From: Alphaproteobacteria bacterium
GTDB taxonomy: Bacteria > Pseudomonadota > Alphaproteobacteria > UBA7985
Assembly: GCA_965228345.1 (NCBI GenBank)
Contig: CBDDHH010000004.1
Span: 74,983 to 138,982 of the forward strand
Length of the DNA: 64,000 bases
Direction: 5' to 3'
Positions 3,412 to 62,566 of the stretch are shown here, piece after piece. Numbering within the stretch: position 1 is the stretch's first letter; each line of letters begins with the position of its first letter. A model generated the notes under the pieces. It was not told the origin of the DNA. It was given only the letters and a program-made list of their open reading frames with translations, and did not search any database. A program made the translations under genes and the position numbers.

Positions 3412-3645
3412 TGAAAATGACCCTTATGTCCGCTGGCATAAGGGTCGCGACTGCGGCTCCCCAAGTAGGCTCCACGCCCAAGGGGCGCAGGAAACGCCCG
3501 CGCCCAAAGCGCATGGCCCGAGACAAGCCAAGAAGGCACCTCGGGGTAAAGCAGAGGCCCCATCGGAGGCGAAACGCGAAGCGTTTCTGCCGTGAGACAA
3601 GAAACGGTCATGAAAAGGTCACTTTTTATGACCGCTGGTATGAGG
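3398..3645 (-). repeat. Modular hairpin repeat copy (reverse orientation), includes the GGGCGCAGGAACGCCCGCGC module
   Basis: Contains ggcgaaacgcgaagcgtttctgccgtgagaca and terminal units ataccagtggtcat..gtccgctggcata and ggtcatgaaaaggtcactttttatgaccgctggtat. Confidence 0.8.
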
Positions 3646-3676: not shown

Positions 3677-5074
3677 TCATAAGCGCTGAACCGACCGTGC
3701 AACCCATGCAAAGGCAAAGCCGCCCGCCAGCAAGGTTGCCAGGCTGCTGCCCCAGGGGATCGCCACAAACTCTGGCGTTGCCTGCTGGAACAGGGGAATC
3801 AGCAGGAGCGGCAGGAGCATTTGCCGACCCACGTTGACCCAGGCGCTAAAACCTGGCTGGCGCATGCCCGTTTTGAACGACGTCGCCGAATAGAGCAGCC
3901 CGAAAAAGACCGCCGCCATCCCCGCATAAAATAAATACTGCGCCGCCACATCGGCTTCCCGTCCTGGGGTGGCGACCCAGTTGGCCAGGGGCTGGCGAAA
4001 GAGCAGCAGCACGAAGGTCGCGGCCAAGGTCAGGGTCAGGTTGACCCACGTCGCCAGCCAAAACACCCGCCGCACCCGATCCATTTGGCCAGCGCCGCTG
4101 TTCTGCCCGATGATGGCCAAGGCACCGATTCCGACGCCGATGATCGGCAGCAGCAAGACTTGCTCAACTCGCGCCCCGACGCTGATCCCCCCTAAGGTCC
4201 CATCCGCGTAGCCGCTGGCGAACATGTTGATCAGCAAGACCGATCCGGCCACGGTTAACATGGAGATCGACCCAGGCAAGGCTTGCGCGGCGATGGTTCG
4301 CAGCAGGGCCGTGTCGGGTCGAACCTCGCGCCAACGAATGCCCTTAAGCGCCCCAAGCAGGCGGACTTCCCACACTACGTAGAGAAAATTCAGCGGTCCT
4401 TGCAGCAGGACGGTGGCGATCCCCAGCCCTACGACCCCCCAACTAAGGAGATGCATGAACACATAGTTGAGGGCAATGTTGAGAATGAACGCCAAGGTCA
4501 GTGACACGCCAAAGGCGCGATTGTTGCCGGCGCCCGACAGTAGCGCGTAGAGGGCGAAGTTAGCAATGATAAGGGGGCCACCTGCGTAAATCGCAACCAT
4601 GTAGCCAGCGGCCCAGGCGTATTCGGTCCCATGCAGCCCTTGCACCCGTGCCAGCAAAACATCCAGGAGGCTCAGGCCGACGAGAGCCACCGCCAGGCCC
4701 ACGAGCCCCCCGAAAATCAGCGCCTGGACCGTAAGCGCCCGTACCGACGAGGAATCTTTGCGACCGTAGGCGTTGGCGATCAGGGCGGTTGTACCCTGAT
4801 ACAGGCCAATCCCAAACGCCAGCTGCAGGAAAAATAAGGGAAAGGTCGCGCCCAAAGCGTCCTGCGTGGACGCCCCGGGAGGCCCGGCCCAAGATCGGGC
4901 GTAGATCAGGTCCACGACGTTGTAGAGGGTGTTGAACACGAACCCAATGGTCGCGGGCAAAGCCATGAACAGGAGCGCCCTCCACAGGGGGTCGCGCAGC
5001 AAATCGACGGGCAACTTGCCCACTGCGCGGGTAGCGGCCTGCGCGCCCGCCTGGGGGCTGTCCCGATCAGACAT
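3677..5074 (-). CDS. MATE family efflux transporter
   Basis: 12-TM protein with MATE-like N-terminus (LWRALLFMALPATIGFVFNTLYNVVDLIYA). Start set at MSDRDSP (ATG at 5072-5074). The longer ORF to 5452 only extends by translating the 48-bp tandem repeat. Confidence 0.75.
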   Translation of the reverse strand: MSDRDSPQAGAQAATRAVGKLPVDLLRDPLWRALLFMALPATIGFVFNTLYNVVDLIYARSWAGPPGASTQDALGATFPLFFLQLAFGIGLYQGTTALIANAYGRKDSSSVRALTVQALIFGGLVGLAVALVGLSLLDVLLARVQGLHGTEYAWAAGYMVAIYAGGPLIIANFALYALLSGAGNNRAFGVSLTLAFILNIALNYVFMHLLSWGVVGLGIATVLLQGPLNFLYVVWEVRLLGALKGIRWREVRPDTALLRTIAAQALPGSISMLTVAGSVLLINMFASGYADGTLGGISVGARVEQVLLLPIIGVGIGALAIIGQNSGAGQMDRVRRVFWLATWVNLTLTLAATFVLLLFRQPLANWVATPGREADVAAQYLFYAGMAAVFFGLLYSATSFKTGMRQPGFSAWVNVGRQMLLPLLLIPLFQQATPEFVAIPWGSSLATLLAGGFAFAWVARSVQRL

Positions 5075-5095
5075 GCCCGAAAAAGGGTCGTCGCG

Positions 5096-5273
5096 GACGT
5101 TCCCTGCGCCCTCCAGGCTTGGAGTCCGCGTCTTCAGTGCGCGGACGTTCCCTGCGCCCTCCAGGCTTGGAGTCCGCGTCTTCAGTGCGCGGACGTTCCC
5201 TGCGCCCTCCAGGCTTGGAGTCCGCGTCTTCAGTGCGCGGACGTTCCCTGCGCCCTCCAGGCTTGGAGTCCGC
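5096..5273. repeat. Tandem array, 48-bp unit x ~3.7 (gacgttccctgcgccctccaggcttggagtccgcgtcttcagtgcgcg)
   Basis: Perfect head-to-tail copies are visible directly. The unit is a divergent variant of the GGGCGCAGGGAACGCCCGCG/GGCTCCAAGC module of the repeat family. Confidence 0.9.
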
Positions 5274-5283
5274 TTGATATCCT

Positions 5284-5727
5284 CTAAGAAACATCGTCGC
5301 CCCTTGGAAAAGACTGCCAAGCCTGCGCCGCGTCTAAATCGTGTGCGCGTTGCTGGACCCAATGGTCCCCTTCCTGCTTCCAAAAGGGGGCGTTGGACTT
5401 CAAAGTATCCATGATAAAGTCCACCGCGCGAATCGCCGCGTGGCGATGGCATGCCGCCGCCAGCACCAAAACAATCTGGTCCCCAGGTTGCAAGATCCCG
5501 TGACGGTGGACAATACGAACCTCGAGCAAATCAAAGCGCGCCAATGCCTGTGCCCGCAGGTCCTGCAACACCCTCAGACTCATACCCGGATAGTGTTCGA
5601 GCAACAGGGGCACGTCGCGGACCGTGCCCATAAAGCTGGCGATCGCACCCATGTCGGTACGCCCGCCGCGCAGGGCCTTCAGTTCGCACGCCAGATCAAA
5701 ATCCGCTGCCTGCACCGAGACGCCCAC
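5284..5727 (-). CDS. moaE: Molybdopterin synthase catalytic subunit MoaE
   Basis: MoaE-like sequence in the position downstream of moaD. Confidence 0.75.
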   Translation of the reverse strand: MGVSVQAADFDLACELKALRGGRTDMGAIASFMGTVRDVPLLLEHYPGMSLRVLQDLRAQALARFDLLEVRIVHRHGILQPGDQIVLVLAAACHRHAAIRAVDFIMDTLKSNAPFWKQEGDHWVQQRAHDLDAAQAWQSFPRGDDVS

Positions 5728-17935: not shown

Positions 17936-18280
17936 CCGACTTATACCAACGGTCATAAAAAGTAACCTTTTTATGACCGTTTCGTGTCTCACGGCAGAAA
18001 CGCGTTGCGTTTCGGCTTTTTGGGGTAGCGGTCTCACCTTGCTCGCACCGCCCGACCGTGCGACGGGGCCTTCGCTTATACCCCGAGGCGCTTTCTTAGC
18101 TGATCTCGGGGCCGCGTGTTTTTGGTACGAGCGTTTCCTACGCCTTTCGGGCTTGGAGCCCAACTGTTTCGCGCGCGGGCGTTCCCTGCGCCCTTCGGGC
18201 TTGGAGCCCACTTGGGGGGGCCGCAGTCGCAGTCCCTATACAGCCGAATATAAGAGTCACTCATAATTGCCGCTGGTATT
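17928..18280 (+). repeat. Modular hairpin repeat copy (two tandem GGCTTGGAGCCC modules)
   Basis: Same module order as 28678-28965, with left unit tataccaacggtcataaaaagtaacctttttatgaccgtt and right unit ...cataattgccgctggtat. Confidence 0.85.
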
Positions 18281-21557: not shown

Positions 21558-21733
21558 GATACCAGCGATCATAAGAGTCATTTATAATTGCCGCTGGTAT
21601 TTGCTGTTCTCGGGGCCGCTTGTTTTTGGCGCGGGCGTTCCCTGCGCCCTTCGGGCTTGGAGCCCGCCACGGGGGCCGCAGTCGCGGCCCTATACCAGTT
21701 CATAAGGAGTCTGTTTTTGGGAGAACTGGTATT
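21558..21733. repeat. Modular hairpin repeat copy lacking central core
   Basis: gataccagcgatcataagagtcatttataattgccgctggtat, then ggcgcgggcgttccctgcgcccttcgggcttggagccc, gggggccgcagtcgcggccc and tataccagttcataaggagtctgtttttgggagaactggtat. Confidence 0.85.
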
Positions 21734-23385: not shown

Positions 23386-23401
23386 GCGTACCAAGTGCTC
23401 T

Positions 23402-23448
23402 AATACCAACTCCGCTGAAAATGTCAATTTTTAGCGGAGTTGGTATTA
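23402..23448. repeat. Solo palindromic unit (TATACCAACTCCGCTGAAAATGTCAATTTTTAGCGGAGTTGGTATTA)
   Basis: Perfect palindrome between convergent channel and GST genes. Confidence 0.85.
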
Positions 23449-27365: not shown

Positions 27366-27396
27366 GGAAACCTTGGGTTTATTTTGAGGAACTTCT

Positions 27397-27490
27397 TATA
27401 CCAATGCTCATAAAAAGTGACCTTTTTATGACCGTTTCGTATCTTATACCAACTCCGCTAAAAATTGACATTTTCAGCGGAGTTGGTATT
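27397..27490. repeat. Two adjacent palindromic units (type 2 + type 3)
   Basis: tataccaatgctcataaaaagtgacctttttatgaccgtttcgtatc followed by ttataccaactccgctaaaaattgacattttcagcggagttggtatt. Confidence 0.85.
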
Positions 27491-28677: not shown

Positions 28678-28965
28678 AATACCAACGGCGAAAAAAGCTG
28701 ACACTTTTTTATGTCTCACGGCAGAAACGCTTCGCGTTTCGCCTGTTTGATGCGGTCTCTACTCGCTCGCTACGCTCGCTCAGCCCGACCGCGCGACAGG
28801 GCCTTCGCTGATACCCCGAGGCGCTTTCTTAGCTCATCTCGGGGCCGTTTGTTTTTGGCGCGGGCGTTCCCTGCGCCCTTTGGGCTTGGAGCCCGCTGCG
28901 GGGGCCGCAGTCGCGGCCCTTGATACCAGCGATCATAAGAGTCATTTATAATTGCCGCTGGTATA
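28678..28965 (+). repeat. Archetypal full-length modular hairpin repeat (all modules, single copy each)
   Basis: Order: unit1, core hairpin (gaaacgc-ttc-gcgtttc), GCGGTCTC..CCCGACCG module, CCCCGAG hairpin, 48-bp GGCGCGGGCGTTCCCTGCGCCC/GGCTTGGAGCCC module, GGCCGCAGTCGCGGCC hairpin, unit2. Confidence 0.9.
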
Positions 28966-38009: not shown

Positions 38010-38039
38010 GAGTCTGTCTTGGCTAGTAAGACCAGCGGC

Positions 38040-38078
38040 AAATATAAATGACTCTTATGACCGTTGGTATAAGTTCTA
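38040..38078. repeat. Partial solo unit (aaatgactcttatgaccgttggtataag)
   Basis: Right half of type-2b unit plus clamp. Confidence 0.5.
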
Positions 38079-41042: not shown

Positions 41043-41090
41043 GGCTTATACCAGCGGCAATTATAAATGACTCTTATGACTGTTGGTATA
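41043..41090. repeat. Solo palindromic unit (TATACCAGCGGCAATTATAAATGACTCTTATGACTGTTGGTATA)
   Basis: Between convergent atpF and the dehydrogenase gene. Confidence 0.8.
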
Positions 41091-41118
41091 AGCGTCTCGT
41101 TTTTCGTGGCCGCCCATA

Positions 41119-42347: not shown

Positions 42348-42586
42348 GATACCAGCGGCAATGATAAATGACTCTTATGATCGCTGGTATAAGGGCCGCG
42401 ACTGCGGCCCCCGTAGCGGGCTCCAAGCCTAAAGGGCGCAGGGAACGCCCGCGCCAAAAACAAGCGGCCCCGAGAACAGCTAAGAAAGCGCCTCGGGGTA
42501 TCAGCGAAGGGGAGGCGAAACGCGGAGCGTTTCTTCCGTGAGACAAAACTCCGCTGAAAATGTCAATTTTTAACGGAGTTGGTGTA
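42348..42586 (-). repeat. Modular hairpin repeat copy (reverse orientation)
   Basis: gataccagcggcaatgataaatgactcttatgatcgctggtat ... gggcgcagggaacgcccgcgcc ... ggcgaaacgcggagcgtttcttccgtgagaca ... aaaatgtcaatttttaacggagttggtgta. Confidence 0.85.
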
Positions 42587-43083: not shown

Positions 43084-43370
43084 TTATACCAGCGGCAATG
43101 ATAAATGACTCTTATGATCGCGGGTATAAGGGCCGCGACCGCGGCCCCCGTAGCGGGCTCCAAGTCCAAAGGGCGCAGGGAACGCCCGCGCCAAAAACAA
43201 ACGACCCCGAGATCGGCGGACACGCGCCTCGGGGTATAAGCGAAGGCGCGGTCGGGCTGAGCGAGCGTAGCGAGCGAGGTGAGACCGCATCAAACAGGCG
43301 AAACGCGAAGCGTTTTCGCCGCGAGACAAAACTCTGCTGAAAATGTCAATTTTTAGCGGAGTTGGTATAA
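43084..43370 (-). repeat. Modular hairpin repeat copy (reverse orientation, with GCGGTCTCACC module)
   Basis: About 90% identical to 42348-42586 plus the extra module. Ends 10 bp before the paiB-like ATG. Confidence 0.85.
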
Positions 43371-48874: not shown

Positions 48875-49150
48875 TACCAGCGGAAACAAGACTGACCTGC
48901 TGATCCACTTCTCATACCAGTTCACCTTAAAACAGACTCTTTATGAACTGGTATAGGGCCGCGACTGCGGCCCCCGCAGCGGGCTCCAAGCCCAAAGGGC
49001 GCAGAGAACGCCCGCGCCAAAAACAAACGGCCCCGAGACAAGCTAAGAAAGCGCCTCGGGGTATAAGCGAAGGGGAGGCGAAACGCGAAGCGTTTCTGCC
49101 GTGAGACAAAACTCCGATAAAAATGTCAATTTTTATCGGAATTGGGTTCA
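48873..49150 (-). repeat. Modular hairpin repeat copy (reverse orientation), begins inside the stop codon of the upstream gene
   Basis: gTGAtaccagcgg ... cataccagttcaccttaaaacagactctttatgaactggtat ... ggcgaaacgcgaagcgtttctgccgtgagaca ... aaaatgtcaatttttatcgg. Confidence 0.85.
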
Positions 49151-49351
49151 GGAGGTCATTCAACCTATTCAAAACAAACGCAAATAGCTTCAAGCATGCT
49201 CCTTGGGATACGGCTCAAAAAGCGATGCGACCCAGCCACTAAATTCTTGCAAATTTGCCGAACTTTTGACACGGGTCAGGAGCGTGTTGCTGAGGGCCGT
49301 CAAGTTCTTTGTCTGCCGTCGACGCGGCGCTCAATTTTCTTTGAAGGTTCT

Positions 49352-49879
49352 ATGATGCTTCGTCTGATCGCTTTTCTTTTTGTCACATGCTCCCCCCTAA
49401 CAGCTGCAGCCCAAACTGCGCAAGAACTTGGCAGCAATGGAGATTGGAAAGCTTATAGCTATACGGACCCCACGAGCGGTGGCTTGGTTTGTTTTGTATC
49501 TAGTCCACCGAAACAAATGGAAGGCGATTATCAGCGTCGCGGACCTGCTTGGTTACAAATCACCCACCGTCAAGGCGAGGAAAACGCCGCCAATCGGGTC
49601 AATGTAGTGACGTTTGCGGCGGGGTTCACGTTCTGGGATCAGCATCAACCTGTGATTCGCATCGGTGATCAACAATTTCGAATGCATACCGAAAACGAGA
49701 CCGCTTGGTCTTTTCCAGCTGATGATTCCGCACTGACCCGCGCTATGCGCGATGGGGCCAGTTTGTTCATCGAGTCTAAGTCCTGGCGCGGTACCGAAAT
49801 TCGCGATACTTTTTCTCTTCGCGGGATCACCGCCATGCACAATCGCATATCTGAGGAATGCGGATTTGACCCACTTTAA
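49352..49879 (+). CDS. IalB-like (invasion-associated locus B family) secreted protein
   Basis: Signal peptide MMLRLIAFLFVTCSPLTAAA, then GDW..C pattern (GSNGDWKAYSY..GLVCFVSS). Low-GC gene. Confidence 0.5.
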   Translation: MMLRLIAFLFVTCSPLTAAAQTAQELGSNGDWKAYSYTDPTSGGLVCFVSSPPKQMEGDYQRRGPAWLQITHRQGEENAANRVNVVTFAAGFTFWDQHQPVIRIGDQQFRMHTENETAWSFPADDSALTRAMRDGASLFIESKSWRGTEIRDTFSLRGITAMHNRISEECGFDPL

Positions 49880-50082
49880 AACTCTTTGATGTCTCTTATC
49901 CAGAGGCCGGGCCTGGCAGTCGAGGTGGGGTCGCAATCAAAAATGCCAAGACACGAACTGCGATAGATATGTGTCGCGTTGAGCCTGTGTTGACCCCAAA
50001 CCCAGACCCTCAAGCACGAGGTGTTTTCGTCAGGGGACACAAAGCCACTCCAAAGATCACAATTTTTGGAGTCGGTGGTGCG

Positions 50083-50652
50083 ATGCCCCTTGTCCCCTGG
50101 TTTCTCGCTTTCCTGTGTTCTGCTATCTTGTCAGCTTGCGGCGGCGCGCTCCCCGAACGCTATCATTCCAGGGACTATGATCTCAAAGAAGTCACAGCGC
50201 TCTCACGCAGTGCTCTCGCCACGCTGCAAACCCAATCGTTTAAAACCAATCGTGAATACTGCGGCTACATTGGTATTGACCCAACCGGCCAGGTGCGCGC
50301 CGCACCTGCTAGCAAGGGGCGGGTGAACACATGCCGTGCGGTCAATCAGCCACTCGATTGGCACATTATCGCCCACTATCATACCCACGGGGCCTACGAC
50401 GCACGCCACAATACCGAACGACCTACGGCTCTTGATATCACGGGCGGTCTAGGGCAGGCGGGCATTGTTGGGTTTGTTTCGACTCCTGGGGGACGATTTT
50501 GGCAAATTGGTCTTAGCGATCCGACGCAGCCCGCTGCAAAGCTGCTTTGTGATGAAGGATGTCTGCCTCAAGACCCTCAGTTCAAAGACATACATCCTAT
50601 AAAATCGAGCTATAGCTTGGCTGAGTTGATGGCCTTGGGCGAAAAATCCTGA
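50083..50652 (+). CDS. DUF4329-like lipoprotein
   Basis: Lipobox ..AILSAC. REYCGYIGIDPTGQV..WHIIAHYHTHGAYD resembles DUF4329. Low-GC gene. Confidence 0.45.
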   Translation: MPLVPWFLAFLCSAILSACGGALPERYHSRDYDLKEVTALSRSALATLQTQSFKTNREYCGYIGIDPTGQVRAAPASKGRVNTCRAVNQPLDWHIIAHYHTHGAYDARHNTERPTALDITGGLGQAGIVGFVSTPGGRFWQIGLSDPTQPAAKLLCDEGCLPQDPQFKDIHPIKSSYSLAELMALGEKS

Positions 50653-50687
50653 TCCTGAACGATCTTCCCAAGTCGGCAAGTTATATC

Positions 50688-51172
50688 GGCGGCAATTGTG
50701 AGTGAGTCTTAATGGTCGCTGGTATAAGGGCCGCGACTGCGGCGGCCCCAAGCGGGCTCCAAGCTCGAAGGGCGTAGGGAACGCCCGCGCACGAAAGGGT
50801 TGGGCTCCAAGCTCGAAGGGCGCAGGGAACGCCCGCGCACGAAAGGGTTGGGCTCCAAGCTCGAAGGGCGCAGGGAACGCCCGCGCACGAAAGGGTTGGG
50901 CTCCAAGCTCGAAGGGCGCAGGGAACGCCCGCGCACGAAAGGGTTGGGCTCCAAGCTCGAAGGGCGCAGGGAACGCCCGCGCCAAAAACAAGTGGCCCCG
51001 AGAATAGCTAAGAAGGCGCCTCGGGGTATAAGCGAAGGCCCCGTCGCACGGTCGGGCTGAGCGAGCGGTGCGAGCGAGGTGAGACCGCCGCTCAAAAAAG
51101 CCGAAACGCGGAGCGTTTCTGCCGTGAGACCAAACTCCGCTGAAAATGTCAATGTTTAGCGGAGTTGGTACT
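50688..51172 (-). repeat. Largest modular hairpin repeat copy with 5 tandem 48-bp modules (50754..50985)
   Basis: Five head-to-tail gggctccaagctcgaagggcgcagggaacgcccgcgcacgaaagggtt units embedded between standard end/core modules. Confidence 0.9.
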
Positions 51173-51312
51173 AAAGGTCTGGCAGGGCGGGAAAAATTAT
51201 GGCTTTCGTGCGAGAAAAGAGGCCTTTTTTGGTTCCGAGGCTTTGCAAAACGGCAACCAGGTGCTAAGGGCCGCGCTCTCAATCGGGGCCAGGGGCCTCA
51301 AAAGGAGTTTCA

Positions 51313-51516
51313 GTGGAAGTATCAGTACGCGACAATAATGTGGAGCAAGCTTTGCGCGCGCTCAAGAAGAAGTTGCAGCGTGAGGGTCTGTTTCGGGAAA
51401 TGAAGGAGCGTCGGCACTTCGAAAAACCCAGCTTGCGTCGCAAGCGGGAAAAGCAAGAAATGGCGCGGCGTCACCGCAAGAATTTGCGCAAGAAGATGGA
51501 GCGCGACGGTTTCTAG
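51313..51516 (+). CDS. rpsU: 30S ribosomal protein S21
   Basis: ..[40 protein letters not shown].. matches S21 throughout. Confidence 0.85.
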
Positions 51517-54343: not shown

Positions 54344-54632
54344 TATAGCGAGTGCGATTTAATTTGATTAAGGCGCAATCACTATATCCTTTATTGGCGC
54401 TCAGCTTATCGTCTCAAAATGTGATCGTTTTAATACCAGCGGCGAATTAAAATGACTCTTTTATTCGCTGGTATAAGGGCCGCGACCGCGGCCCCCGTAG
54501 CGGCCCCGAGAATAGCGCGAAAGCGCCTCGGGGTATAAGCGAAGGCCCCGTCGGAGGCGAAACGCGAAGCGTTTCTGCCGTGAGACATAAAACGGCTGAA
54601 AAAGTGTCAACTTTTTTCGCCGTTGGTATAAG
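54344..54632 (-). repeat. Modular hairpin repeat copy (reverse) preceded by accessory module E1 (54344..54425), starts 1 bp after the pyrC stop
   Basis: tatagcgagtgcgatttaatttgattaaggcgcaatcactata..., then aataccagcggcgaattaaaatgactcttttattcgctggtat ... ggcgaaacgcgaagcgtttctgccgtgagaca ... ggctgaaaaagtgtcaacttttttcgccgttggtat. Confidence 0.85.
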
Positions 54633-55869: not shown

Positions 55870-56451
55870 CTAGCCTATCGCATCTATGAGCGCGGCTAAA
55901 GCCCGAAACCGCTGGGTCGAAAGCCCCAGCGCCTGCATCTGATCGATGGTATGGGCCAGGTAGGCGCGGTTGGTCCCCATGCCGCCCGTCGCCTGGGCCA
56001 TGATCGCCGCTTGTTCGTGCATCGACAGGCCGGGTGTAAACTGAGGCGCGCCAGGTGTGGGGACAAAGGTTAGGGCGCGGATAGTTTTGTTTGCCATGCG
56101 GCAGGGAAGTAGGGCGGGCCTGTAGGCGTAGGTGCCGATTTCGCGGTCCATTAAATAATCGTAGGCTGCGGGCACGTCCGCCGCCGCGACCTGAAAGGCG
56201 CGCCCTAGGCACGAACCGCCGGGGCATAGACTTAGCACGAGACCCGGTGTTTGGGGTGTGCCGCGATGGCGAACGGACTGCATGGCAAAATCGCGATGAT
56301 ATCCGTAGATGCGCGCAGAACAGGTGGTCACATGGGCAAAGCCAGGGTTCCACATGAGCGAACCATAACCAAACACCCACAGCGGGTTCCTAAGCAGCCG
56401 CTGGCGCAAATCCCCTAAGTCTTGCCTTTGTATGGGCATAGGGTAAGGCAT
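55870..56451 (-). CDS. chaC: Gamma-glutamylcyclotransferase, ChaC family
   Basis: ..LWVFGYGSLMWNP.. (YGSL motif) and downstream catalytic Glu region. Start set at MPYPMPIQ. Confidence 0.7.
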   Translation of the reverse strand: MPYPMPIQRQDLGDLRQRLLRNPLWVFGYGSLMWNPGFAHVTTCSARIYGYHRDFAMQSVRHRGTPQTPGLVLSLCPGGSCLGRAFQVAAADVPAAYDYLMDREIGTYAYRPALLPCRMANKTIRALTFVPTPGAPQFTPGLSMHEQAAIMAQATGGMGTNRAYLAHTIDQMQALGLSTQRFRALAALIDAIG

Positions 56452-56483
56452 AGGGTCGTGAGTTAAAAAAGAAAGCCTTTGCC

Positions 56484-57611
56484 ATGCGCATCCTTCGCTA
56501 CGTTCTTTATGGCTTTGTCGCCCTGCTGGTTTTGGGATGGAGCGGTGCGTGGCTGGCAGGTCAGCGGATCTTGTTGCGTGAACTGCGCCAGCACGGCTTG
56601 GACGTTCAGGTGGACGAGTTGCACTTTCGCGCTGATGACGTTCGGGTCGGGGGGTTTCCATTTCACTATCGCGTAAGCCCGCGTGGCGCGCAGATCAGCG
56701 GTCTTCAAGACATGCCGACCCTCACCTTAGATGATCGGATTGCGGTTCAGGTTTCCGTGGTTGGCAGTGCGCTCAGTTTGCTGTCAGGCGGCGAATTGAG
56801 CGTGCAGGTTCAGTTTCCTGGCACCTATGAGGTGGATGATCTAGCCAGCATTCGCGTCGATTCTGGTTGGATACGGACCGGCTTGAGCGGCTTCAGTCTT
56901 GGAAACCAAGACACCTGGGTCTTCGATGGGGTGGATATGGACATTGACGCGCTGGCGGTGTCGATGGCGTCGGGCGACGATTGGGTGATCTTTGAAACCC
57001 TGACCCTAGATATGAACCCGCTGGGCAACGCGCCTGGGTACAGTTACGCTCTTGACCTGACAGGCTTGACCCCTGGGTTTCTGGATTTGGGGCGCGTGCC
57101 ACCTCAAATTGACCAGATTGCCTTGAGGGGCCGTATCCAACCTGACCTTCGCTCTGACTACTTTCGGTTTCTTGATGCGGCAACCGAAAACCCTATGGAG
57201 GCTCTGATCTCTAACGCCGAAGTCATCAGGACGTTGCTCAGCTCTGCGCCGGGGATATATGTGACCGAAGGGACGTTGAAATGGGGCGAGGCGTCGATCA
57301 AGGCGCAGCTTGACTTCCCTCTGACCCTCGCGGCCTTGCAACAACAGCTGCACGTGAAAGTCGCAGGCACGCTGGCGTTCACGGGGGTCGGTACTTTTTT
57401 GGAGGAGTTGTTGCGCGCGCCAAGCGTGCAACAAGTCCGCGGTCTGGCGCCACTGATTTCTGGTATTCGCGCGACCGCACCCCGTCTTGGCTTGGATTTG
57501 AACCAAGGCCGCACCAGCACGCTCGACGGGACCTTGATCACCATCGGGACAGCGGGGGTGCGCCCCACCCCAGAACGGGTTTTGATCGATGGTCGCCCCT
57601 TATCGTTCTAA
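56484..57611 (+). CDS. DUF2125-like membrane-anchored hypothetical protein
   Basis: N-terminal TM anchor (YVLYGFVALLVLGW). Remainder of uncharacterised alphaproteobacterial family. Name is low-confidence. Confidence 0.4.
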   Translation: MRILRYVLYGFVALLVLGWSGAWLAGQRILLRELRQHGLDVQVDELHFRADDVRVGGFPFHYRVSPRGAQISGLQDMPTLTLDDRIAVQVSVVGSALSLLSGGELSVQVQFPGTYEVDDLASIRVDSGWIRTGLSGFSLGNQDTWVFDGVDMDIDALAVSMASGDDWVIFETLTLDMNPLGNAPGYSYALDLTGLTPGFLDLGRVPPQIDQIALRGRIQPDLRSDYFRFLDAATENPMEALISNAEVIRTLLSSAPGIYVTEGTLKWGEASIKAQLDFPLTLAALQQQLHVKVAGTLAFTGVGTFLEELLRAPSVQQVRGLAPLISGIRATAPRLGLDLNQGRTSTLDGTLITIGTAGVRPTPERVLIDGRPLSF

Positions 57612-57762
57612 ATCTGGCCCTGGGTGCCTAGAACCGATTGAATGGTGCACGGCAGATTCCAAGGTCGGTTCGGATTGGAATCAGCAATAAAGCGACATCA
57701 TGTGTTGATTTGGCGGCTTACCTTGCCTAAGCCCCCCAAAAAATAGAGTGCAAAAGCGAGCA

Positions 57763-58980
57763 ATGTCCAAAATCAAAGTGCTGAACCCTGTGGTCGAGCT
57801 TGACGGCGATGAAATGACCCGAATCATTTGGGAATTCATCAAGGAACGGCTGATCCTGCCCTACTTAGACATGGATCTTAGGTACTTTGACCTTGGCATT
57901 GAAAAGCGTGATCAAACCGACGATCAAATTACCATCGACGCCGCCAAGGCGATTCAGGAACATCGTGTCGGGGTCAAGTGCGCGACCATTACCCCGGACG
58001 AGGCGCGCGTTGAGGAATTTGATCTGCGGCGCATGTACCCCAGCCCCAACGGAACCATCCGCAATATCATCGGGGGCACCATTTTTCGCGCGCCGATTGT
58101 GATGCAGAACGTCCCGCGTTTGGTACCAGGTTGGACGCACCCCATCGTCATTGGCCGCCATGCTTTTGGCGATCAGTACCGCGCAACCGATACCCTAATC
58201 CCTGGACCGGGCAAGTTGCGGATGGTTTATGAACCCGCGGAGGGCGGCGCCGTGCAGGACCTGGAGGTGCATGCTTTCGATCAAGCGGGCGTTGCCATGA
58301 CCATGTACAACCACGACGAATCCATTCGCGGCTTTGCGCGGTCGTGCATGAACTATGGCCTCAATGTCGGGTGGCCCGTCTATCTATCGACCAAAAATAC
58401 GATCATGAAGAGGTACGATGGTAGGTTCAAGGACTTGTTCCAAGAAATTTATGACGCCGAGTTTTCCGACAAGTTTCGGGCCGCGGGCATTACGTACGAA
58501 CACCGCCTGATCGACGATATGGTCGCCGCAGCGCTGAAGTGGAACGGTGAATTTGTTTGGGCCTGCAAGAACTACGATGGCGATGTGCAGTCAGACACGG
58601 TAGCTCAGGGGTTTGGCTCGCTAGGCCTCATGACCTCAGTGCTCATGACTCCCGATGGAAAGACGGTGGAGGCCGAAGCCGCTCATGGGACGGTGACCCG
58701 CCACTATCGCCTGCATCAGCAAGGCAAGGAAACCTCAACCAATCCCATTGCGTCGATTTTCGCCTGGACGCGCGGGCTGGCCTACCGCGGCAAGTTTGAT
58801 GAGACCCCAGAAGTAGTCAAGTTCGCAGAAACGCTGGAAAAGGTCTGTATCGAAACGGTCGAAGCGGGCTTTATGACCAAGGATTTGGCTCTACTCGTAT
58901 CCCCCGACCAGGGTTGGATGACGACGCGACAATTTTTGGATAAGCTCGACGAAGGGTTGAAGGGGGCCATGGATGCCTAA
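57763..58980 (+). CDS. icd: NADP-dependent isocitrate dehydrogenase (eukaryote-like homodimeric type)
   Basis: [23 protein letters not shown].. canonical start. 405 aa. Confidence 0.95.
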
Positions 58981-60022
58981 GACACTCAAGGGACTGCTCT
59001 CGGTCCTGGTTTTTTGCCTCCTGGACACCGGCGTGCAGGCGGAGGTTTATTGGTCGGTGCGGCCCGATGACCAACTGGGCGACGGGGAACGACGGGGCGA
59101 CTTTATATCGGGTTGGGCACGTGTGATCGTCGACGACACGGGGGCGGTTCAATCGTTGCAGGATTTAAAGGCATCTTACGGGTCTGTACTTTCCGCTCTC
59201 TCGACTGCAAGCGCGAACAATGCTGCCTTGGTGGAGACAACAGATATTGAGGATCTTGGGAGCGTATCACGGATTCTCACCGATCCCATCCATGCCGTTT
59301 CGGGTTTGCTATTACTCGAGACCTATGTCGGCGGCTTAGCCGCTAATGAGGACTTAAAGGCTACCAAGTTCATTCTGCCTAGGCCCGATTTGCTCGTGTT
59401 CCAAGCAGAGTTTAATTCTGAGATTGATACGAACTTCGCCGACTTGGCTTTTCGCCTTTCCCAAGGCTCTGATGGCGTTAGCGATCTGATCTTAACCTAC
59501 GCTGAAGGCACCTACACCACCAACGCCCCGCCAACAGCAGAGGAAATTCTCATGGCCCTTGGACCCGACCCAGAAAACACGCTCATCATCACCCTGAAGG
59601 ACGGAGAGGTTGCCATTCGTTTACGCGACGATTTGGCACCCAACCACGTCAGTCGATTGAAGGAGCTCACTCGTCAAAACTTCTACGATGGCCTGGTTTT
59701 TCACCGCGTGATAGATGGATTTATGGCCCAAACTGGTGACCCTACCGGGACGGGAACTTCAGGGTCGGGTCAGAACTTGAACGCCGAGTTCACGGATGCG
59801 CCGTTTTTGCGCGGTACCGTCGGCATGGCGCGAGCAACGAGCCCCAATTCAGCAGACAGTCAGTTCTTTATCATGTTTGACGAGGGCCGATTCCTAGACA
59901 ACAACTATACGGTCATTGGTCAAGTCACATCAGGCATGGAGTTTGTTGATCAAATCAAGCGCGGCGAACCCCCCACGGATCCCGACAAAATGATCCGTGT
60001 TCGCGTTGAAGCCGATCTCTAA
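58973..60022 (+). CDS. Cyclophilin-type peptidyl-prolyl isomerase with ~170-aa secreted N-terminal domain
   Basis: Signal peptide, then C-terminal ..[24 protein letters not shown].. cyclophilin motifs. Start overlaps the icd stop. Confidence 0.7.
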
Positions 60023-60029
60023 ACCCTTC

Positions 60030-60251
60030 TACCAGGAGTCGATTCAGCTTGCGCGCACCAGACACTTCCATGCCGCCATACTTGGCCTTGGACTTGTAAT
60101 ACCTGGCTGTGTTGAGGCCATGCATGCGACATATGTCCTTAGTCGGAGGGCCTGCCTCATGCTCCCGTATCATCCCAATGATTTGTTCTTCGGTAAATCT
60201 GCTCTTGCCCATCTCTCCGCTCCTTCAAATTTGCAGGTTAGCAGACTCTCA
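60030..60251 (-). mobile_element. IS3-family insertion sequence remnant (left inverted repeat + first ~57 codons of orfA)
   Basis: orfA HTH MGKSRFTEEQIIGMIREHEAGPPTKDICRMHGLNTARYYKSKAKYGGMEVSGARKLNRLLVE is typical of IS3 OrfA. Terminal TGAGAGTCTGC at 60251. Homology ends where the cyclophilin 3' end begins. Confidence 0.6.
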
Positions 60252-60401
60252 AAATAAAAGAGGAAACTTATGGAGGGCACGTCAGGACCAGCGCACTAAG
60301 GAGGCTATTCCTACTCGAAAGCGCTCCGAGGCTTGTGCAGACGTCAAACCTTCATTCTCCTTAACGGACAAAACATGAAGACGAAATTCTAAGGGATAAG
60401 T

Positions 60402-60593
60402 CATACCAGCGGAGATTTAAAATGACTCTTTTATTCGCTGGTATAAGGGCCGCGACTGCGGCCCCCGTAGCGGCCCCGAGATGAGCTAAGAAAGCGCCTC
60501 GGGGTATAAGCGAAGGGGAGGCGAAACGCGAAGCGTTTCTGCCGTGAGACATAAAACGGCTGAAAAAGTGTCAACTTTTTTCGCCGTTGGTAT
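60402..60593 (-). repeat. Modular hairpin repeat copy (reverse orientation, minimal form)
   Basis: cataccagcggagatttaaaatgactcttttattcgctggtat ... ggcgaaacgcgaagcgtttctgccgtgagaca ... ggctgaaaaagtgtcaacttttttcgccgttggtat. Confidence 0.85.
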
Positions 60594-60728
60594 TAATCGT
60601 AAAACATCGCGTATCTTGCGCATGGGCACTCTCTGCATAGCCCCTCCTCTTGGTCGTGAAAAACCAACAGGATAGGGCCTGGTTAGAGCGCCTCAAACAA
60701 ACACCAGCATCGCTCCCTAAATAGGGTG

Positions 60729-60820
60729 GCCGAATGACCCGGAATCACCAGCCGAATGATAATGGAACCGGTGGCCGAATGACGCTGGAATCACCGGCCG
60801 AATGACCCCGGAATGTGCCT
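60729..60820 (+). promoter_or_regulatory. Four imperfect direct repeats (22-24 bp period) GCCGAATGAC-N3-GGAATCACC, ~30 bp upstream of a membrane-protein gene
   Basis: gccgaatgacccggaatcacca / gccgaatgataatggaaccggtg / gccgaatgacgctggaatcaccg / gccgaatgaccccggaatgtgcc read directly from sequence. Confidence 0.4.
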
Positions 60821-60849
60821 CCTGTAACTAGAAGGATTATGAGAGCCTT

Positions 60850-61374
60850 ATGACACAAGTAACGACGTCTCCCGCAAGGCTCAATTTTGGTTGGTCGGGC
60901 GCCTATCGGCCTATTTGGATTATCTACGGTCTGATATTTATTTCAGTGACCCTTGGCGTTTTAGCCAATGGCCTTGGGTTTGATACCTGGATGGAGCTAT
61001 CCATGGGCGCGATTGCCTTAATCTTTGCTTTATTCAAGCTGTTTGATCTCAGGGCCTTTGCTAGAGACTTTGCTGGCTATGATGTATTGGCAAAGCGCAT
61101 ACCTGCCTATGGCCGCGCCTATCCCTTCATCGAGGCAGGGATGGGTCTGCTGTTCGTTGCGAGTATCGCCATTCCTGTCGCTCTGGTTGCTTCAGTTCTG
61201 GTCTTTGGGGCAGGGTTGATTGGCGTGTGGCAAGCCTTGCAGCGTGGCGAGAAGATTCAGTGCGCCTGTGTGGGCAAGATGTTTGATTTGCCCTTGTCGC
61301 GTGTTGCCCTGTTTGAAAATGGCCTCATGGTTGGCATGTCGCTAATTATGCTGATCCTCATGACCGTGAGATAG
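60850..61374 (+). CDS. Hypothetical 4-TM membrane protein (MauE/DoxX-like) with CxC motif
   Basis: 174 aa, four hydrophobic helices, ..KIQCACVGKMF... 4 bp upstream of the merR-like gene. Confidence 0.4.
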   Translation: MTQVTTSPARLNFGWSGAYRPIWIIYGLIFISVTLGVLANGLGFDTWMELSMGAIALIFALFKLFDLRAFARDFAGYDVLAKRIPAYGRAYPFIEAGMGLLFVASIAIPVALVASVLVFGAGLIGVWQALQRGEKIQCACVGKMFDLPLSRVALFENGLMVGMSLIMLILMTVR

Positions 61375-61378
61375 ACCC

Positions 61379-61703
61379 ATGAATATCCAGGGGGCTGCGC
61401 ACCTATCCAATTTGTCCACCAAAACCATCCGATACTATGAGGGTGTGGGCCTAATTTCCCCCACACGTTCACCCAACGGCTACCGCGACTTTGATCGAGT
61501 TGATGTTATTCGCCTTTCCTTCATTGCCCGCGCAAGGGGACTTGGCTTTTCTATTCGGGGAGGTGCGCACGCTCTTAGATTTACAAGATACTCCCAGCCG
61601 CGGTTCAGCAGAGGTAAAGGCCCTGGCCAAAGCGCATTTGAATGAGTTGGATCGCAAACTGGCCGAGCTTTCGCAGATGCGGCCCTTGTACCAAGCATCA
61701 TAA
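61379..61703 (+). pseudogene. MerR/CueR-like regulator interrupted by +1 frameshift (extra G near 61560)
   Basis: N-terminal HTH LSTKTIRYYEGVGLI..GYRDF..DVIRLSFIARARGLGFSI in one frame. Continuation EVRTLLDLQ..AEVKALAKAHLNELDRKLAELSQMR in the +1 frame (ORF 61491..61703). Removing one G from cgggga restores the frame. Confidence 0.55.
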
Positions 61704-61740
61704 AGGTCAAACTTTATGGCGCTTGGTATAAGACCTATCT

Positions 61741-62451: not shown

Positions 62452-62502
62452 GGTAGTTTAGGGTAATAACCAGAATGGGATCACCTTGGGAATACCTAAA
62501 AT

Positions 62503-62555
62503 TAAGAGTCGCTCATTCTTGCCGCTGGCATAACCCCTGTGCCCGCTGGTATAGG
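62503..62555. repeat. Degenerate solo unit (..gccgctggcataacccctgtgcccgctggtatagg)
   Basis: Contains two CCGCTGG(C/T)ATA clamp copies. Confidence 0.4.
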
Positions 62556-62566
62556 GGTCGCTGTTT

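What the first reader, a model, noticed from the sequence alone, without database searches (positions are those of the whole stretch)
50754..50985. 48-bp repeat module expands as perfect tandem arrays (5x here; ~3.7x divergent variant at 5096-5273)
Within the largest repeat copy, the GGGCTCCAAGCTCGAAGGGCGCAGGGAACGCCCGCGCACGAAAGGGTT module is present five times head-to-tail with essentially no divergence. Other copies carry 1 or 2. A diverged 48-bp relative forms a separate 4-unit array at 5096-5273 upstream of the MATE gene. Identical contiguous units imply recent slippage or recombination, so copy number is probably hypervariable between strains (a VNTR-like locus). Each unit contains a GCGCAGGGAACGCCCGCGC imperfect palindrome.
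Basis: seen in the sequence. Interest (0 to 1): 0.6.

Follow-up and report, generated by a model that had tools for sequence, protein, structure and literature searches.

The report
Variable 48-bp module in mobile repeats
The 48-base tandem arrays are real: they are an expandable hairpin module of a small mobile intergenic repeat family in an uncultured alphaproteobacterium, and related strains differ in unit number, much like the boxB module of pneumococcal BOX elements.

Summary
There are five head-to-tail 48-bp units at 50752-50991 (one mismatch). Four units of a roughly 80%-similar subtype lie at 5082-5273 on the other strand.

The unit is one optional cassette ("C") of a dense, modular, MITE-like mosaic repeat family. 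The family has about 22 places covering about 4.7 kb of the 64 kb. Its elements have 9-11-nt terminal inverted repeats (TACCAGCGG...) and 3-bp T-N-A target-site duplications. Closely related strains differ in whether an element is present. Elements in the window carry 0, 1, 2 or 5 C units.

Copy number does vary:
- In the sister species the ybjN-rimP spacer of three strains is identical base for base. The only differences are 3/4/3 C units and 4/2/2 units of a second 48-bp cassette (E).
- The orthologous moaE-MATE spacer has 4 units here and 1 degenerate unit in the sister species, a difference of exactly 144 bp.

I therefore read the arrays as VNTR-like expansions of a hairpin module, arising by slippage or unequal recombination. 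This parallels boxB in pneumococcal BOX elements and REP clusters (BIMEs).

The family matches no Rfam family and was found only in this narrow clade. Any effect on rpsU or MATE expression is untested. It is a new member of a known kind, of moderate interest.

The parts
50684..51170 (+). Complete composite mosaic (MITE-like) element, 487 bp, module order A-B-C(x5)-D-E-F-G. It has a degenerate left terminal repeat TATCGGCGG and a right end ...GGAGTTGGTA. The flanking triplets are TTA and CTA.
   Evidence: Sequence; module map B+ C+x5 D+ E+ F+; repeat interval 50678-51176. It folds as a chain of separate hairpins, -228 kcal/mol, z = -3.3.
50684..50724 (+). Module A: terminal hairpin carrying the left inverted repeat.
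   Evidence: stem 1-10 with 32-41 of the element.
50725..50751 (+). Module B: GGGCCGCGACTGCGGC hairpin plus a short link ending in AAGC.
50752..50991 (+). Five tandem 48-bp C units (A-type, GCGGGC...GCCCGC): 50752-50799, 50800-50847, 50848-50895, 50896-50943, 50944-50991. There is one substitution (C to T in unit 1). Units 1-4 have linker ACGAAAGGG and unit 5 has the terminal linker CAAAAACAA.
   Evidence: TRF 50754-50982; nhmmer units.
50992..51038 (+). Module D (GGCCCCGAGA...CCTCGGGGTATAAGCGAAGG). Its first 12 nt resemble the start of a C unit, giving a 48-bp-spaced microhomology.
51039..51099 (+). Module E (GGTCGGGCTGAGCGAGCGGTGCGAGCGAGGTGAGACCGC plus an A-rich linker), single copy here. 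It is a 48-bp VNTR in the sister species.
51100..51170 (+). Modules F (GAAACGCGGAGCGTTTC hairpin, CTGCCGTGAGAC) and G (terminal hairpin AACTCCGCT...AGCGGAGTTGGTA, the right inverted repeat).
   Evidence: (D4, D7, D8).
5082..5273 (-). Stand-alone array of four B-type C units (GCGGAC...GTCCGC) with no other mosaic modules. It fills the moaE-MATE spacer and ends 17 nt before the MATE ATG (5074).
   Evidence: TRF 5092-5273, 100% matches.
18116..18211 (-). Two C units inside a mosaic element (17944-18278). The second unit is decayed. The internal junction is GCGAAACAGTT.
3465..3512 (+). Single, somewhat decayed C unit in the mosaic element inserted between the MATE stop and the ppx start.
21620..21667 (-). 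Single C unit in a mosaic element.
28849..28896 (-). Single C unit in mosaic element 28680-28963 (flanks TAA/TAA).
42416..42463 (+). Single C unit in a mosaic element.
43153..43200 (+). Single C unit in a mosaic element.
48979..49026 (+). Single C unit in a mosaic element (flanks TCA/TCA).
51313..51516 (+). rpsU (ribosomal protein S21), 142 nt downstream of the element. The 135 nt in between are conserved with the sister species.
49969..50652 (+). DUF4329-domain gene upstream of the element. It is not the upstream neighbour of rpsU in relatives.
   Evidence: Pfam PF14220, E = 1.6e-21.
3677..5074 (-). MATE efflux gene directly downstream of the B-type array.
   Evidence: (PF01554).
5284..5727 (-). 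moaE, directly upstream of the B-type array.
   Evidence: Pfam MoaE, E = 2.4e-26.

Best explanation
The 48-bp unit is a roughly 37-nt G+C-rich self-complementary hairpin plus a roughly 11-nt A-rich linker. It is an optional, expandable internal cassette ("C") of a lineage-specific family of non-coding, MITE-like mosaic elements built from a chain of hairpin cassettes (A-B-C(n)-D-(E)-F-G). The elements spread by transposition. They have terminal inverted repeats TACCAGCGG.../...CCGCTGGTA and 3-bp T-N-A target-site duplications. After insertion, the C cassette changes copy number in place. The likely routes are replication slippage or unequal recombination between adjacent 48-bp repeats. The first duplication can be seeded by the microhomology AGCGG(G/C)C(T/C)CC(A/G)AG, which brackets a single unit at a spacing of exactly 48 bp. 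The hairpins probably favour misalignment. This produces near-perfect arrays whose length differs between close relatives, so they are VNTR-like loci. A B-type subfamily also occurs as stand-alone arrays in operon spacers. Copy-number variation, mobility signatures and modular anatomy are shown. The slippage or recombination mechanism and the seeding by microhomology are inferred. No dedicated cellular function is required. Any effect on neighbouring genes would be a by-product, for example hairpins in the moaE-MATE transcript.
For: Arrays and the dispersed family.

Modular composition: window elements carry 0 (x6), 1 (x6), 2 (x1) or 5 (x1) C units, plus one stand-alone array of 4. Zero-copy elements join B directly to D (GTAGC|GGCCCCGAG). 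One-copy elements read GTAGC|GGGCTCCAAG...ACAAGC|GGCCCCGAG (D2, 17).

In-place expansion: array-private variants are repeated in every unit. Within-array identity is 97.9% against 88.5% between loci in the window, and 98.4% against 95.3% in the sister genome.

Orthologous locus: the moaE-MATE spacer has 4 units here (209 nt) and 1 degenerate unit in OZ245893.1 and in strain contig_18 (65 nt), a difference of 144 bp.

Strain-level variation: the ybjN-rimP spacers of L070, L071 and L072 are identical in every aligned column. They differ only in having 3/4/3 C units and 4/2/2 E units, both of period 48. The flanking genes differ by 1.3-2.4%.

Mobility:
- A 249-bp element is present in L070 and L072 and absent in L071. 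The empty site is AAAGTC-TGA-CTCGTC. The filled site is ...TGA-TACCAGCGGCG...CGCCGCTGGTA-TGA....
- A 197-bp element is present in L051 and absent in L052.
- An element lies between MATE and ppx in the window, where the sister species has overlapping ATGA.
- Window copies have matching flanks TTA/TTA, TAA/TAA, TAA/TAA and TCA/TCA.

Hairpin nature: the unit folds at -24.7 kcal/mol as RNA (z = -3.0) and -16.3 as DNA (z = -4.0). Over 34 distinct units, 95.6% of cells pair in the outer-stem plus inner-hairpin model. Pair 5-33 is G-C in 25 units, A-U in 8 and unpaired in 1.

Non-coding: every unit is intergenic and occurs in both orientations relative to neighbouring genes. ORFs through the arrays have no Pfam match. 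There is no Rfam match.

Precedent: boxB arrays in BOX elements vary between strains and serve as MLVA markers (PMC3049150, PMC1315331).
Against: - No conspecific strain of the window genome was available, so variation at 50752-50991 itself is not shown. In relatives the rpsU upstream region has no C unit.
- No transposase with matching ends was found in the sequence at hand.
- Stand-alone B-type arrays lack terminal repeats, so element transposition does not explain how they arrived.
- In the sister genome 6 of 8 multi-unit arrays have exactly 3 units, and many share the internal junction ...AAACAGTT|GGGCTCC. Part of the multi-unit state is therefore inherited from a multi-unit master copy rather than generated locally.
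- The structural covariation rests on one base pair, probably a single subfamily event.
- Raw reads could not be inspected.
Confidence: 0.8

Rival explanations
1. The arrays are cis-regulatory or RNA-level elements whose unit number tunes expression of flanking genes. They could act as mRNA-stabilising or attenuating hairpins within the moaE-MATE-ppx operon and upstream of rpsU, working as contingency loci. This does not exclude the VNTR/MITE origin.
For: The B-type array lies inside an apparent operon, 17 nt before the MATE start codon and in the sense orientation, so it is very probably transcribed. Units are stable hairpins. C-to-T changes in the inner stem keep G-U pairing on the strand written here. 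The ybjN-rimP spacer, element included, shows no substitutions among strains whose flanks differ by 1.3-2.4%. boxA, boxB and boxC affect downstream expression in pneumococcus (PMC3049150).
Against: Units occur in sense, antisense, convergent and divergent contexts. No promoter-like or terminator-like site lies in either array. There is no Rfam match. The rpsU upstream region of relatives lacks the module entirely, so rpsU does not need it. No expression data are available.
Confidence: 0.2
2. The units are binding sites for a DNA-structuring or processing protein, so arrays are clusters of protein-binding sites like E. coli BIMEs. Candidates include gyrase, IHF or another nucleoid protein, or a REP-associated tyrosine transposase.
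For: The units are G+C-rich imperfect palindromes of REP-like size. They are extragenic, abundant and clustered. The period is a constant 48 bp for two different cassettes, C and E. BIMEs bind IHF, Pol I and gyrase (PMC3184786).
Against: Units are head-to-tail, not in the alternating orientation typical of BIMEs. No RAYT or other partner was identified. Nothing here tests binding. The family is confined to a very narrow clade.
Confidence: 0.1
3. The perfect arrays are assembly artefacts, with repeats expanded or collapsed.
For: Near-identical tandem repeats are error-prone in assemblies, and reads could not be examined.
Against: Arrays of 2-4 units occur at many loci in an independently assembled 3.25-Mb chromosome at about 172x. 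Three separately assembled contigs give unit counts differing by whole units in otherwise identical sequence. The 4-versus-1 difference at moaE-MATE is exactly 3 x 48 bp with matching flanks. The arrays are only 190-240 bp long.
Confidence: 0.03
4. The arrays encode a repeat protein or an N-terminal repeat extension of the MATE protein, since a 48-bp period equals 16 codons and several frames are open.
For: ORFs run through both arrays (50702-51007 +, 50709-51152 -, 3677-5452 -).
Against: Several frames and both strands are open simultaneously, as expected for a stop-free repeat. There is no Pfam match. The long MATE ORF would overlap moaE. Orthologous MATE proteins start at the same ATG and are 465 aa long. 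The same unit occurs in both orientations in intergenic DNA.
Confidence: 0.02

Closest known systems
BOX elements of Streptococcus pneumoniae and S. suis (boxA-boxB(n)-boxC)
   Same: Both are composite, non-coding, intergenic, MITE-like repeats with terminal modules and a roughly 45-bp internal module. That module can be absent, single or tandemly repeated with high internal identity. Its number varies between strains, and boxB loci are the main pneumococcal MLVA markers. The internal module folds independently of the terminal ones (PMC3049150, PMC1315331). Here the period is 48 bp with 0-5 copies. Strains show 3 versus 4 copies, and the hairpins fold independently.
   Different: The host phylum and base composition are unrelated (G+C-rich alphaproteobacterium) and no sequence similarity is expected. 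Here there are at least seven cassette types, two of them expandable (C and E). Clear 3-bp T-N-A target duplications and fresh presence/absence polymorphisms are seen here, whereas BOX elements appeared dormant and their target duplications were unclear. The C unit also forms stand-alone arrays outside the composite element.
REP sequences and BIMEs of enterobacteria and pseudomonads
   Same: Both are abundant, extragenic, G+C-rich imperfect palindromes of 35-40 nt. They occur singly or in clusters, including inside operons, where they can affect mRNA stability (PMC3184786).
   Different: In BIMEs neighbouring REPs alternate in orientation and are separated by defined linker motifs. Here the units are strictly head-to-tail. 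No RAYT gene was found. Here the units ride inside elements that have terminal inverted repeats and target duplications, which REPs lack.
Bacterial MITEs (Correia/NIME of Neisseria, RUP, Nezha and others), and by target duplication the T-N-A / TWA type associated with IS5-family and Harbinger-type transposases (from my own knowledge, not tested)
   Same: Both are small (190-490 bp) and non-coding, with terminal inverted repeats, short target duplications, a highly base-paired structure, intergenic location and insertion polymorphism between strains.
   Different: These elements are G+C-rich rather than A+T-rich. They are built of interchangeable cassettes with internal VNTRs. The mobilising transposase is unidentified.
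Classical bacterial VNTR / minisatellite loci used for MLVA
   Same: Both have head-to-tail units of tens of bp and near-identical copies, with whole-unit length differences between close strains.
   Different: Here the same unit is dispersed at many loci as part of a mobile element rather than being a locus-specific repeat.

Membership tests
VNTR (variable-number tandem repeat) locus | Head-to-tail tandem copies of one unit with high identity | tested here: met
   TRF: period 48, 4.8 copies at 99% matches and 3.8 copies at 100%.
VNTR (variable-number tandem repeat) locus | Copy number differs between strains at the same locus | tested here: inconclusive
   Met for the same module in the sister species: 3/4/3 units in otherwise identical ybjN-rimP spacers. 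Met between species at moaE-MATE: 4 versus 1. Not testable for 50752-50991 itself, because no conspecific strain was retrievable.
MITE (miniature inverted-repeat transposable element) | Terminal inverted repeats | tested here: met
   TACCAGCGGCG ... CGCCGCTGGTA is perfect over 11 nt in L070. TACCARCGG / CCGYTGGTA appears in window copies.
MITE (miniature inverted-repeat transposable element) | Target-site duplication, shown by empty versus filled sites | tested here: met
   TGA is duplicated in L070 versus the empty L071. TGA is duplicated in the window versus L064. TAA/TAG appears in L051 versus L052. Matching TTA, TAA, TAA and TCA flanks occur in the window.
MITE (miniature inverted-repeat transposable element) | Small and non-coding | tested here: met
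   Elements are 190-490 bp. ORFs through them have no Pfam match.
MITE (miniature inverted-repeat transposable element) | A cognate autonomous element or transposase with the same ends | tested here: inconclusive
   No candidate was found among TIR-bounded 0.7-2.5-kb segments of the window and about 0.4 Mb of loci. The complete genomes could not be searched.
BOX-type composite repeat (architecture) | Terminal modules flanking an internal roughly 45-bp module present in 0 to n tandem copies | tested here: met
   A-B-C(0,1,2,5)-D-(E)-F-G. The definition of BOX is taken from PMC3049150 and PMC1315331.
BOX-type composite repeat (family membership by sequence) | Sequence homology to the boxA, boxB and boxC profiles | not tested
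   The BOX HMMs are not available in these tools. Composition and host make homology very unlikely (inference).
REP / BIME | G+C-rich imperfect palindrome of about 35-40 nt, extragenic, in high copy number | tested here: met
REP / BIME | Clustered units alternate in orientation | tested here: not met
   All units in every array are on the same strand at 48-bp spacing.
REP / BIME | Association with a RAYT (REP-associated tyrosine transposase) gene | not testable with these tools
   Only 64 kb plus selected loci are readable, and none was seen there. A whole-genome search is needed.
CRISPR array | Repeats separated by unique spacers of about 30 nt | tested here: not met
   The 11-nt linkers are identical within an array.
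Any Rfam RNA family | Covariance-model match at the gathering score | tested here: not met
   Only tRNA-Ala matches in the window. The only permissive match in 50600-51320 is a chance one at E = 0.76.

The most novel reading that the evidence does not exclude
This lineage carries an undescribed, currently active family of mobile elements assembled entirely from hairpin-plus-linker cassettes of about 48 nt, making up about 7% of this window. At least two cassettes (C and E) change copy number faster than point mutations accumulate. The elements insert at T-N-A triplets, including stop codons, and can rebuild overlapping stop and start codons. Under the novel reading, the constant 48-nt period reflects recognition by a dedicated protein (a transposase or a host factor). 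The arrays inside operons, such as moaE-MATE, and upstream of rpsU and rimP-nusA would then act as reversible expression switches rather than neutral junk.
Probability: 0.12. Interest if true: 0.6.

Novelty: new member of a known kind. Interest (0 to 1): 0.38.

Why it matters
- **A second, independent example of the BOX design.** It shows a mobile composite repeat with an expandable internal hairpin module in a G+C-rich, uncultured alphaproteobacterium. This suggests the design arises repeatedly.
- **Practical consequences.** These loci are ready-made strain markers for this lineage. They are places where short-read assemblies will break or miscount. In the relatives compared here, two synteny breaks lie at elements.
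- **A possible model for mobilisation.** The clean empty and filled sites and the 3-bp T-N-A duplications indicate recent or ongoing activity. That could make this a useful natural system for studying how such elements move and how module number changes.

Tried and rejected
1. Looking up the window's own rpsU and MATE proteins to find the source contig and conspecific strains. Both were "not on record". The source is a 965,168-bp contig but could not be read.
2. A genome-collection scan for the window-type unit junction gave 0 hits. The core scan gave hits in unrelated phyla, but these match only the 21-nt core and are chance.
3. Two JGI metagenome scans, one for the junction and one for a single unit, both gave 0 hits.
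4. Comparing the rpsU locus in relatives: it has no C unit, so no copy-number comparison was possible there.
5. Searching for an autonomous element bounded by the same terminal repeats. The candidates were ordinary genes, such as an FAA-hydrolase-like ORF in L021.
I solved this by going through a homology search.
7. The two-hairpin fold that is the minimum-energy structure of A-type units has no covariation support. It is broken at pair 5-13 in 9 of 34 units. The alternative model, an outer stem plus an inner GCCC-NNN-GGGC hairpin, fits slightly better, but on a single covarying pair.
8. Coding, CRISPR, Rfam RNA, promoter and terminator readings were all rejected.
9. Replichore-linked orientation looked striking in the window but was not seen in the sister chromosome.
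Full report
**1. Observation.**
Tandem Repeats Finder reports two period-48 arrays. One is at 50754-50982 (4.8 copies, 99% matches). The other is at 5092-5273 (3.8 copies, 100% matches). The 21-nt core GGGCGCAGGGAACGCCCGCGC has 16 matches with up to 3 mismatches, where 0.01 are expected from shuffles. The two arrays are about 79-80% complementary, so they are one module on opposite strands.

A profile built from the units finds 17 units in 9 places in the window, with array sizes 1,1,1,1,1,1,2,4,5. In unit register the large array is 50752-50991. Units 1-4 end in the private linker ACGAAAGGG. Unit 5 ends in the family's usual terminal linker CAAAAACAA. The only substitution is a C-to-T in unit 1.

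**2. What the unit belongs to.**
The unit is one cassette of a dense mosaic repeat family. A self-comparison of the window marks about 24 repeated intervals totalling about 4.7 kb, roughly 7% of the window. All of them lie between the long ORFs.

Written in the orientation of the 50.7-kb copy, a full element reads as follows:
- A: terminal hairpin, TACCAGCGG...CCGCTGGTA
- B: GGGCCGCGACTGCGGCCC
- C: the 48-bp unit
- D: GGCCCCGAGA...CCTCGGGGTATAAGCGAAGG
- E: optional, GGTCGGGCTGAGCGAGCG...GAGACCGC
- F: GCGAAACGCGAAGCGTTTCTGCCGTGAGAC
- G: terminal hairpin ending in ...GGAGTTGGTA or ...CCGTTGGTA

Window elements carry 0 C units (six elements), 1 (six), 2 (one) or 5 (one). The array at 5082-5273 is a stand-alone run of four units without other modules. 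In zero-copy elements B joins D directly (GTAGC|GGCCCCGAG). In one-copy elements the unit sits between two similar 12-mers exactly 48 bp apart (AGCGGGCTCCAAG ... AGCGGCCCCGAGA). That microhomology is an obvious seed for a first duplication or deletion; this is inference.

The element with five units spans 50684-51170 (487 bp). As RNA it folds into a chain of separate hairpins (-228 kcal/mol, z = -3.3). The A, B, D, E, F and G hairpins are stable in the centroid structure, while the repeated C region is ambiguous in register.

**3. The unit itself.**
The A-type unit is GCGGGCTCCAAGCCCGAAGGGCGCAGGGAACGCCCGCGC plus an A-rich linker. It folds at -24.7 kcal/mol as RNA (z = -3.0) and -16.3 as DNA (z = -4.0).

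Two folds compete. One is a pair of hairpins. The other is an outer stem (positions 1-6 with 32-37) enclosing a small hairpin GCCC-NNN-GGGC whose triloop varies (GAA, AAA, GTA, AGA, GCA, GGA).

I counted pairs on 34 distinct units from this window and the sister genome. The second model pairs 95.6% of cells. Pair 5-33 is G-C in 25 units, A-U in 8 and unpaired in 1. That pair defines the B-type subfamily (GCGGAC...GTCCGC) to which the 5082-5273 array belongs. The two-hairpin model has no covariation and is broken at pair 5-13 in 9 units.

This is weak evidence, resting on one pair and probably one event. It does show that the unit is constrained as a hairpin. The E cassette has the same plan (GCGGTC...GACCGC plus an A-rich linker, 48 nt), from the sequences.

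**4. Relatives.**
The unit junction as found in the window occurs nowhere in the species-representative genome collection. Thirty are from one 3.25-Mb chromosome, OZ245893.1, labelled "MAG: Alphaproteobacteria bacterium". The matches in other phyla cover only the core and are chance.

OZ245893.1 is a sister species. Two aligned coding stretches are 88-90% identical in DNA to the window, and its MATE protein falls in the same 90% cluster. It carries the same mosaic family. In the sample retrieved, which was ascertained by the core, it has C arrays of 1 (22 places), 2 (1), 3 (6) and 4 (1) units.

More distant relatives show no unit or module in 10-20 kb around the genes examined. These have rpsU 91-97% identical or MATE 68% identical. 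Two scans of JGI metagenomes found nothing. rpsU homologues with names point to Rhodospirillales/Kiloniellales-like alphaproteobacteria. The family is therefore confined, as far as can be seen, to a narrow clade.

**5. Is the copy number variable?**
Three lines of evidence say yes.

(a) Arrays carry private variants in all or most units:
- the window 50.7-kb array has GCTC and linker ACGAAAGGG;
- the window 5.1-kb array has GCCTGGA and linker ACTGAAGAC;
- L039 has GAATGCCC in three of its four units;
- L037 has GTCC and AAGCAG in two of three units.

Within-array core identity is 97.9% against 88.5% between loci in the window. In the sister genome the figures are 98.4% against 95.3%.

(b) The moaE-MATE spacer is orthologous between the two species. 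In the window, moaE ends at 5284 (Pfam MoaE) and the MATE ATG is at 5074. That leaves 209 nt holding four perfect B-type units. In OZ245893.1 (L064) and in a second strain (L065) the spacer is 65 nt, with one degenerate unit and the same 3' flank (CGCAACGACAC versus CGCGACGACCC). The difference is exactly 3 x 48 bp.

(c) Three contigs encode the identical YbjN protein of the sister species:
- L070: OZ245893.1, about 172x coverage;
- L071: a 30x contig from the same sample;
- L072: contig_18 from another assembly.

Their ybjN-rimP spacers are 682, 634 and 586 nt. In the alignment every column is identical. The only differences are one 48-bp gap in the C array (3, 4 and 3 units) and one 96-bp gap in the E array (4, 2 and 2 units). 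The flanking genes differ by 1.3-2.4%. Unit number therefore changes faster than bases are substituted.

The window's genome could not be looked up. The rpsU upstream regions of relatives also differ in content:
- The sister species has pgeF, then a solo terminal-type hairpin, then the same roughly 135-nt rpsU leader.
- A low-coverage contig (L053) has a mosaic element without C.
- A further group has a 105-nt spacer without any element.

**6. Mobility of the carrier element.**
There are three empty/filled comparisons.
- **ymdB-ybjN spacer.** L071 has AAAGTC-TGA-CTCGTC. L070 and L072 have AAAGTC-TGA-TACCAGCGGCG...(249-bp gain)...CGCCGCTGGTA-TGA-CTCGTC. This shows 11-nt perfect inverted ends and a 3-bp duplication.
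- **rnpA-rpmH spacer.** L051 has a 197-bp element that L052 lacks, with flanks TAG and TAA around an empty CTAAG.
- **MATE-ppx junction.** In the sister species MATE and ppx overlap (ATGA). The window has a mosaic element there (about 3395-3661), flanked by duplicated TGA. The left copy keeps the MATE stop codon. The element's final A plus the right copy rebuild the ppx ATG.

Window copies with matching flanks include TTA/TTA (17944-18278), TAA/TAA (28680-28963 and 54434-54628) and TCA/TCA (the element at 48.9 kb). Terminal inverted repeats, 3-bp T-N-A duplications, small size, no coding capacity and insertion polymorphism are the defining features of a MITE.

From my own knowledge, T-N-A or TWA 3-bp duplications are typical of some IS5-family and Harbinger-type transposases. 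I found no such gene in the sequence available, so the mobilising enzyme is unknown.

**7. Mechanism, with shown and inferred steps.**
Shown: the unit is a hairpin cassette of a mobile mosaic element. The cassette is present in 0 to 5 copies. Arrays expand in place. Copy number differs between strains and between sister species.

Inferred: changes arise by slipped-strand mispairing during replication or by unequal recombination between 48-bp repeats. Hairpin formation favours misalignment. The first duplication or the loss of the last unit uses the 12-nt microhomology at the C/D boundary.

Part of the multi-unit state is inherited rather than local. Many arrays in both genomes share the internal junction ...AAACAGTT|GGGCTCC, which differs from the terminal linker, and three-unit arrays are over-represented in the sister genome. 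A multi-unit master copy has therefore also been dispersed.

How the stand-alone B-type arrays (5082-5273; L028; L006) reached their sites is not explained.

**8. Function.**
Nothing requires a function. Units occur in sense, antisense, convergent and divergent settings. Neither array contains a promoter-like or terminator-like site. No Rfam family matches.

The B-type array does sit inside what looks like the moeA-moaD-moaE-MATE-ppx operon, 17 nt before the MATE start and in the sense orientation. It is therefore very probably transcribed, and it could influence mRNA processing or translation. The 50.7-kb element lies upstream of a conserved roughly 135-nt rpsU leader and may lie outside the rpsU transcript. 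Effects on expression are possible by analogy with BOX and REP (PMC3049150, PMC3184786) but are untested.

**9. Comparison with known systems.**
The closest analogue is the pneumococcal BOX element. It has boxA and boxC ends around a variable tandem array of 45-bp boxB modules. The boxB number varies more the longer the array is, and these loci supply most MLVA markers (PMC3049150, PMC1315331). The architecture and behaviour are the same here. The sequence, host, number of cassette types, second expandable cassette and clear target duplications are different.

REP/BIME clusters share the G+C-rich palindromic unit, the extragenic clustering and the presence within operons. Their units alternate in orientation, however, and they are linked to RAYT transposases. 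The first feature is not met here and the second could not be tested.

The carrier element meets the MITE definition except for an identified transposase. CRISPR, coding-repeat and assembly-artefact readings are rejected.

**10. Verdict.**
It is better described as the expandable cassette of a new, lineage-specific MITE-like mosaic family. It is a new member of a known kind. Interest is moderate: it is a tidy, apparently active system in an uncultured lineage, without evidence so far of a new mechanism.

Noticed in passing
L070 4230-4430 versus L071 and L072 (sister species, ybjN-rimP spacer); window 51039-51099 holds the single-copy counterpart: A second cassette (E, GTCGGGCTGAGCGAGCGTAGCGAGCGAGTAGAGACCGCAACAACAAGC) also has a 48-bp period. 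It is present in 4, 2 and 2 copies in three otherwise identical strains. Its outer stem GCGGTC/GACCGC parallels GCGGGC/GCCCGC (A-type C) and GCGGAC/GTCCGC (B-type C).
   Followed up: partly
window 3395-3677 versus L064 5380-5420: A mosaic element is inserted exactly at the overlapping stop/start (ATGA) of MATE and ppx. The duplicated TGA keeps the MATE stop codon, and the element's last A plus TG rebuilds the ppx ATG. The left end carries an extra fragment (the 3' half of E plus a degenerate terminal repeat TATTAACGG), suggesting a nested or rearranged copy.
   Followed up: partly
window 1-64000 (elements at 1716-28919 versus 31284-60550): Seven of eight mosaic elements or arrays left of about 30 kb are on the minus strand, and all seven to the right are on the plus strand. 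GC skew is negative at 1-16 kb and positive beyond 30 kb, and gene orientation diverges at 28.3/29.0 kb. A replication origin may lie in the window. In the sister chromosome unit strands are mixed along the sequence, so a replichore rule is not supported.
   Followed up: partly
window 49142-51312 versus L051, L054 and L066: Synteny upstream of rpsU is broken only in the window. Relatives have lgt, a methyltransferase, pgeF and then rpsU. The window instead has an unannotated 245-aa ORF and a DUF4329 gene, followed by the 487-bp element. Synteny with L023 also ends at a mosaic element (window 54433-54632 corresponds to L023 4338-4538).
   Followed up: partly
L070, L071 and L072, 3998-4680: The whole ybjN-rimP spacer (about 590 aligned nt, mobile element included) has no substitution among three strains whose flanking genes differ by 1.3-2.4%. 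About 8 substitutions would be expected. Possible causes are recent exchange or conversion, or strong constraint on the rimP-nusA leader.
   Followed up: no
window 51103-51119 (minus strand) and other F modules: Read on the reverse strand, module F (GAAACGC-TCC-GCGTTTC followed by GGCTTTTTTG) scores as an intrinsic-terminator-like site. Elements could therefore terminate transcription in one orientation.
   Followed up: no
window 23397-23453, 27394-27496, 38028-38073, 41043-41092; L051 4830-4862: Solo terminal-type hairpins (TACCA...TGGTA), with TTGACA or TGTCAA in the loop of one subtype, occur alone or as two side by side. One marks the rpsU upstream site in the sister species at the same position as the right end of the window's element.
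   Followed up: no
L051 1440-1500 and L052 1430-1480 (rnpA-rpmH spacer): This is a C-like unit in which the inner GCCC-NNN-GGGC hairpin is replaced by a different small hairpin (GCGGAGTCCAAG-TCGATTGGAACAATCGA-CGCAGGGAACATCCGCGCC). The outer frame of the cassette therefore appears to accept different inserts.
   Followed up: no
window 14000-24000 and 56000-64000: G+C content drops to 0.53-0.56 in these stretches, against 0.60-0.65 elsewhere. They may be recently acquired or compositionally distinct regions.
   Followed up: no
L053 4600-4930 (low-coverage contig with identical rpsU): This is a mosaic element with an internal duplication of the B-D-F block (A-B-D-F-B-D-F-G) and no C unit. Larger multi-cassette blocks can therefore also be duplicated.
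   Followed up: no
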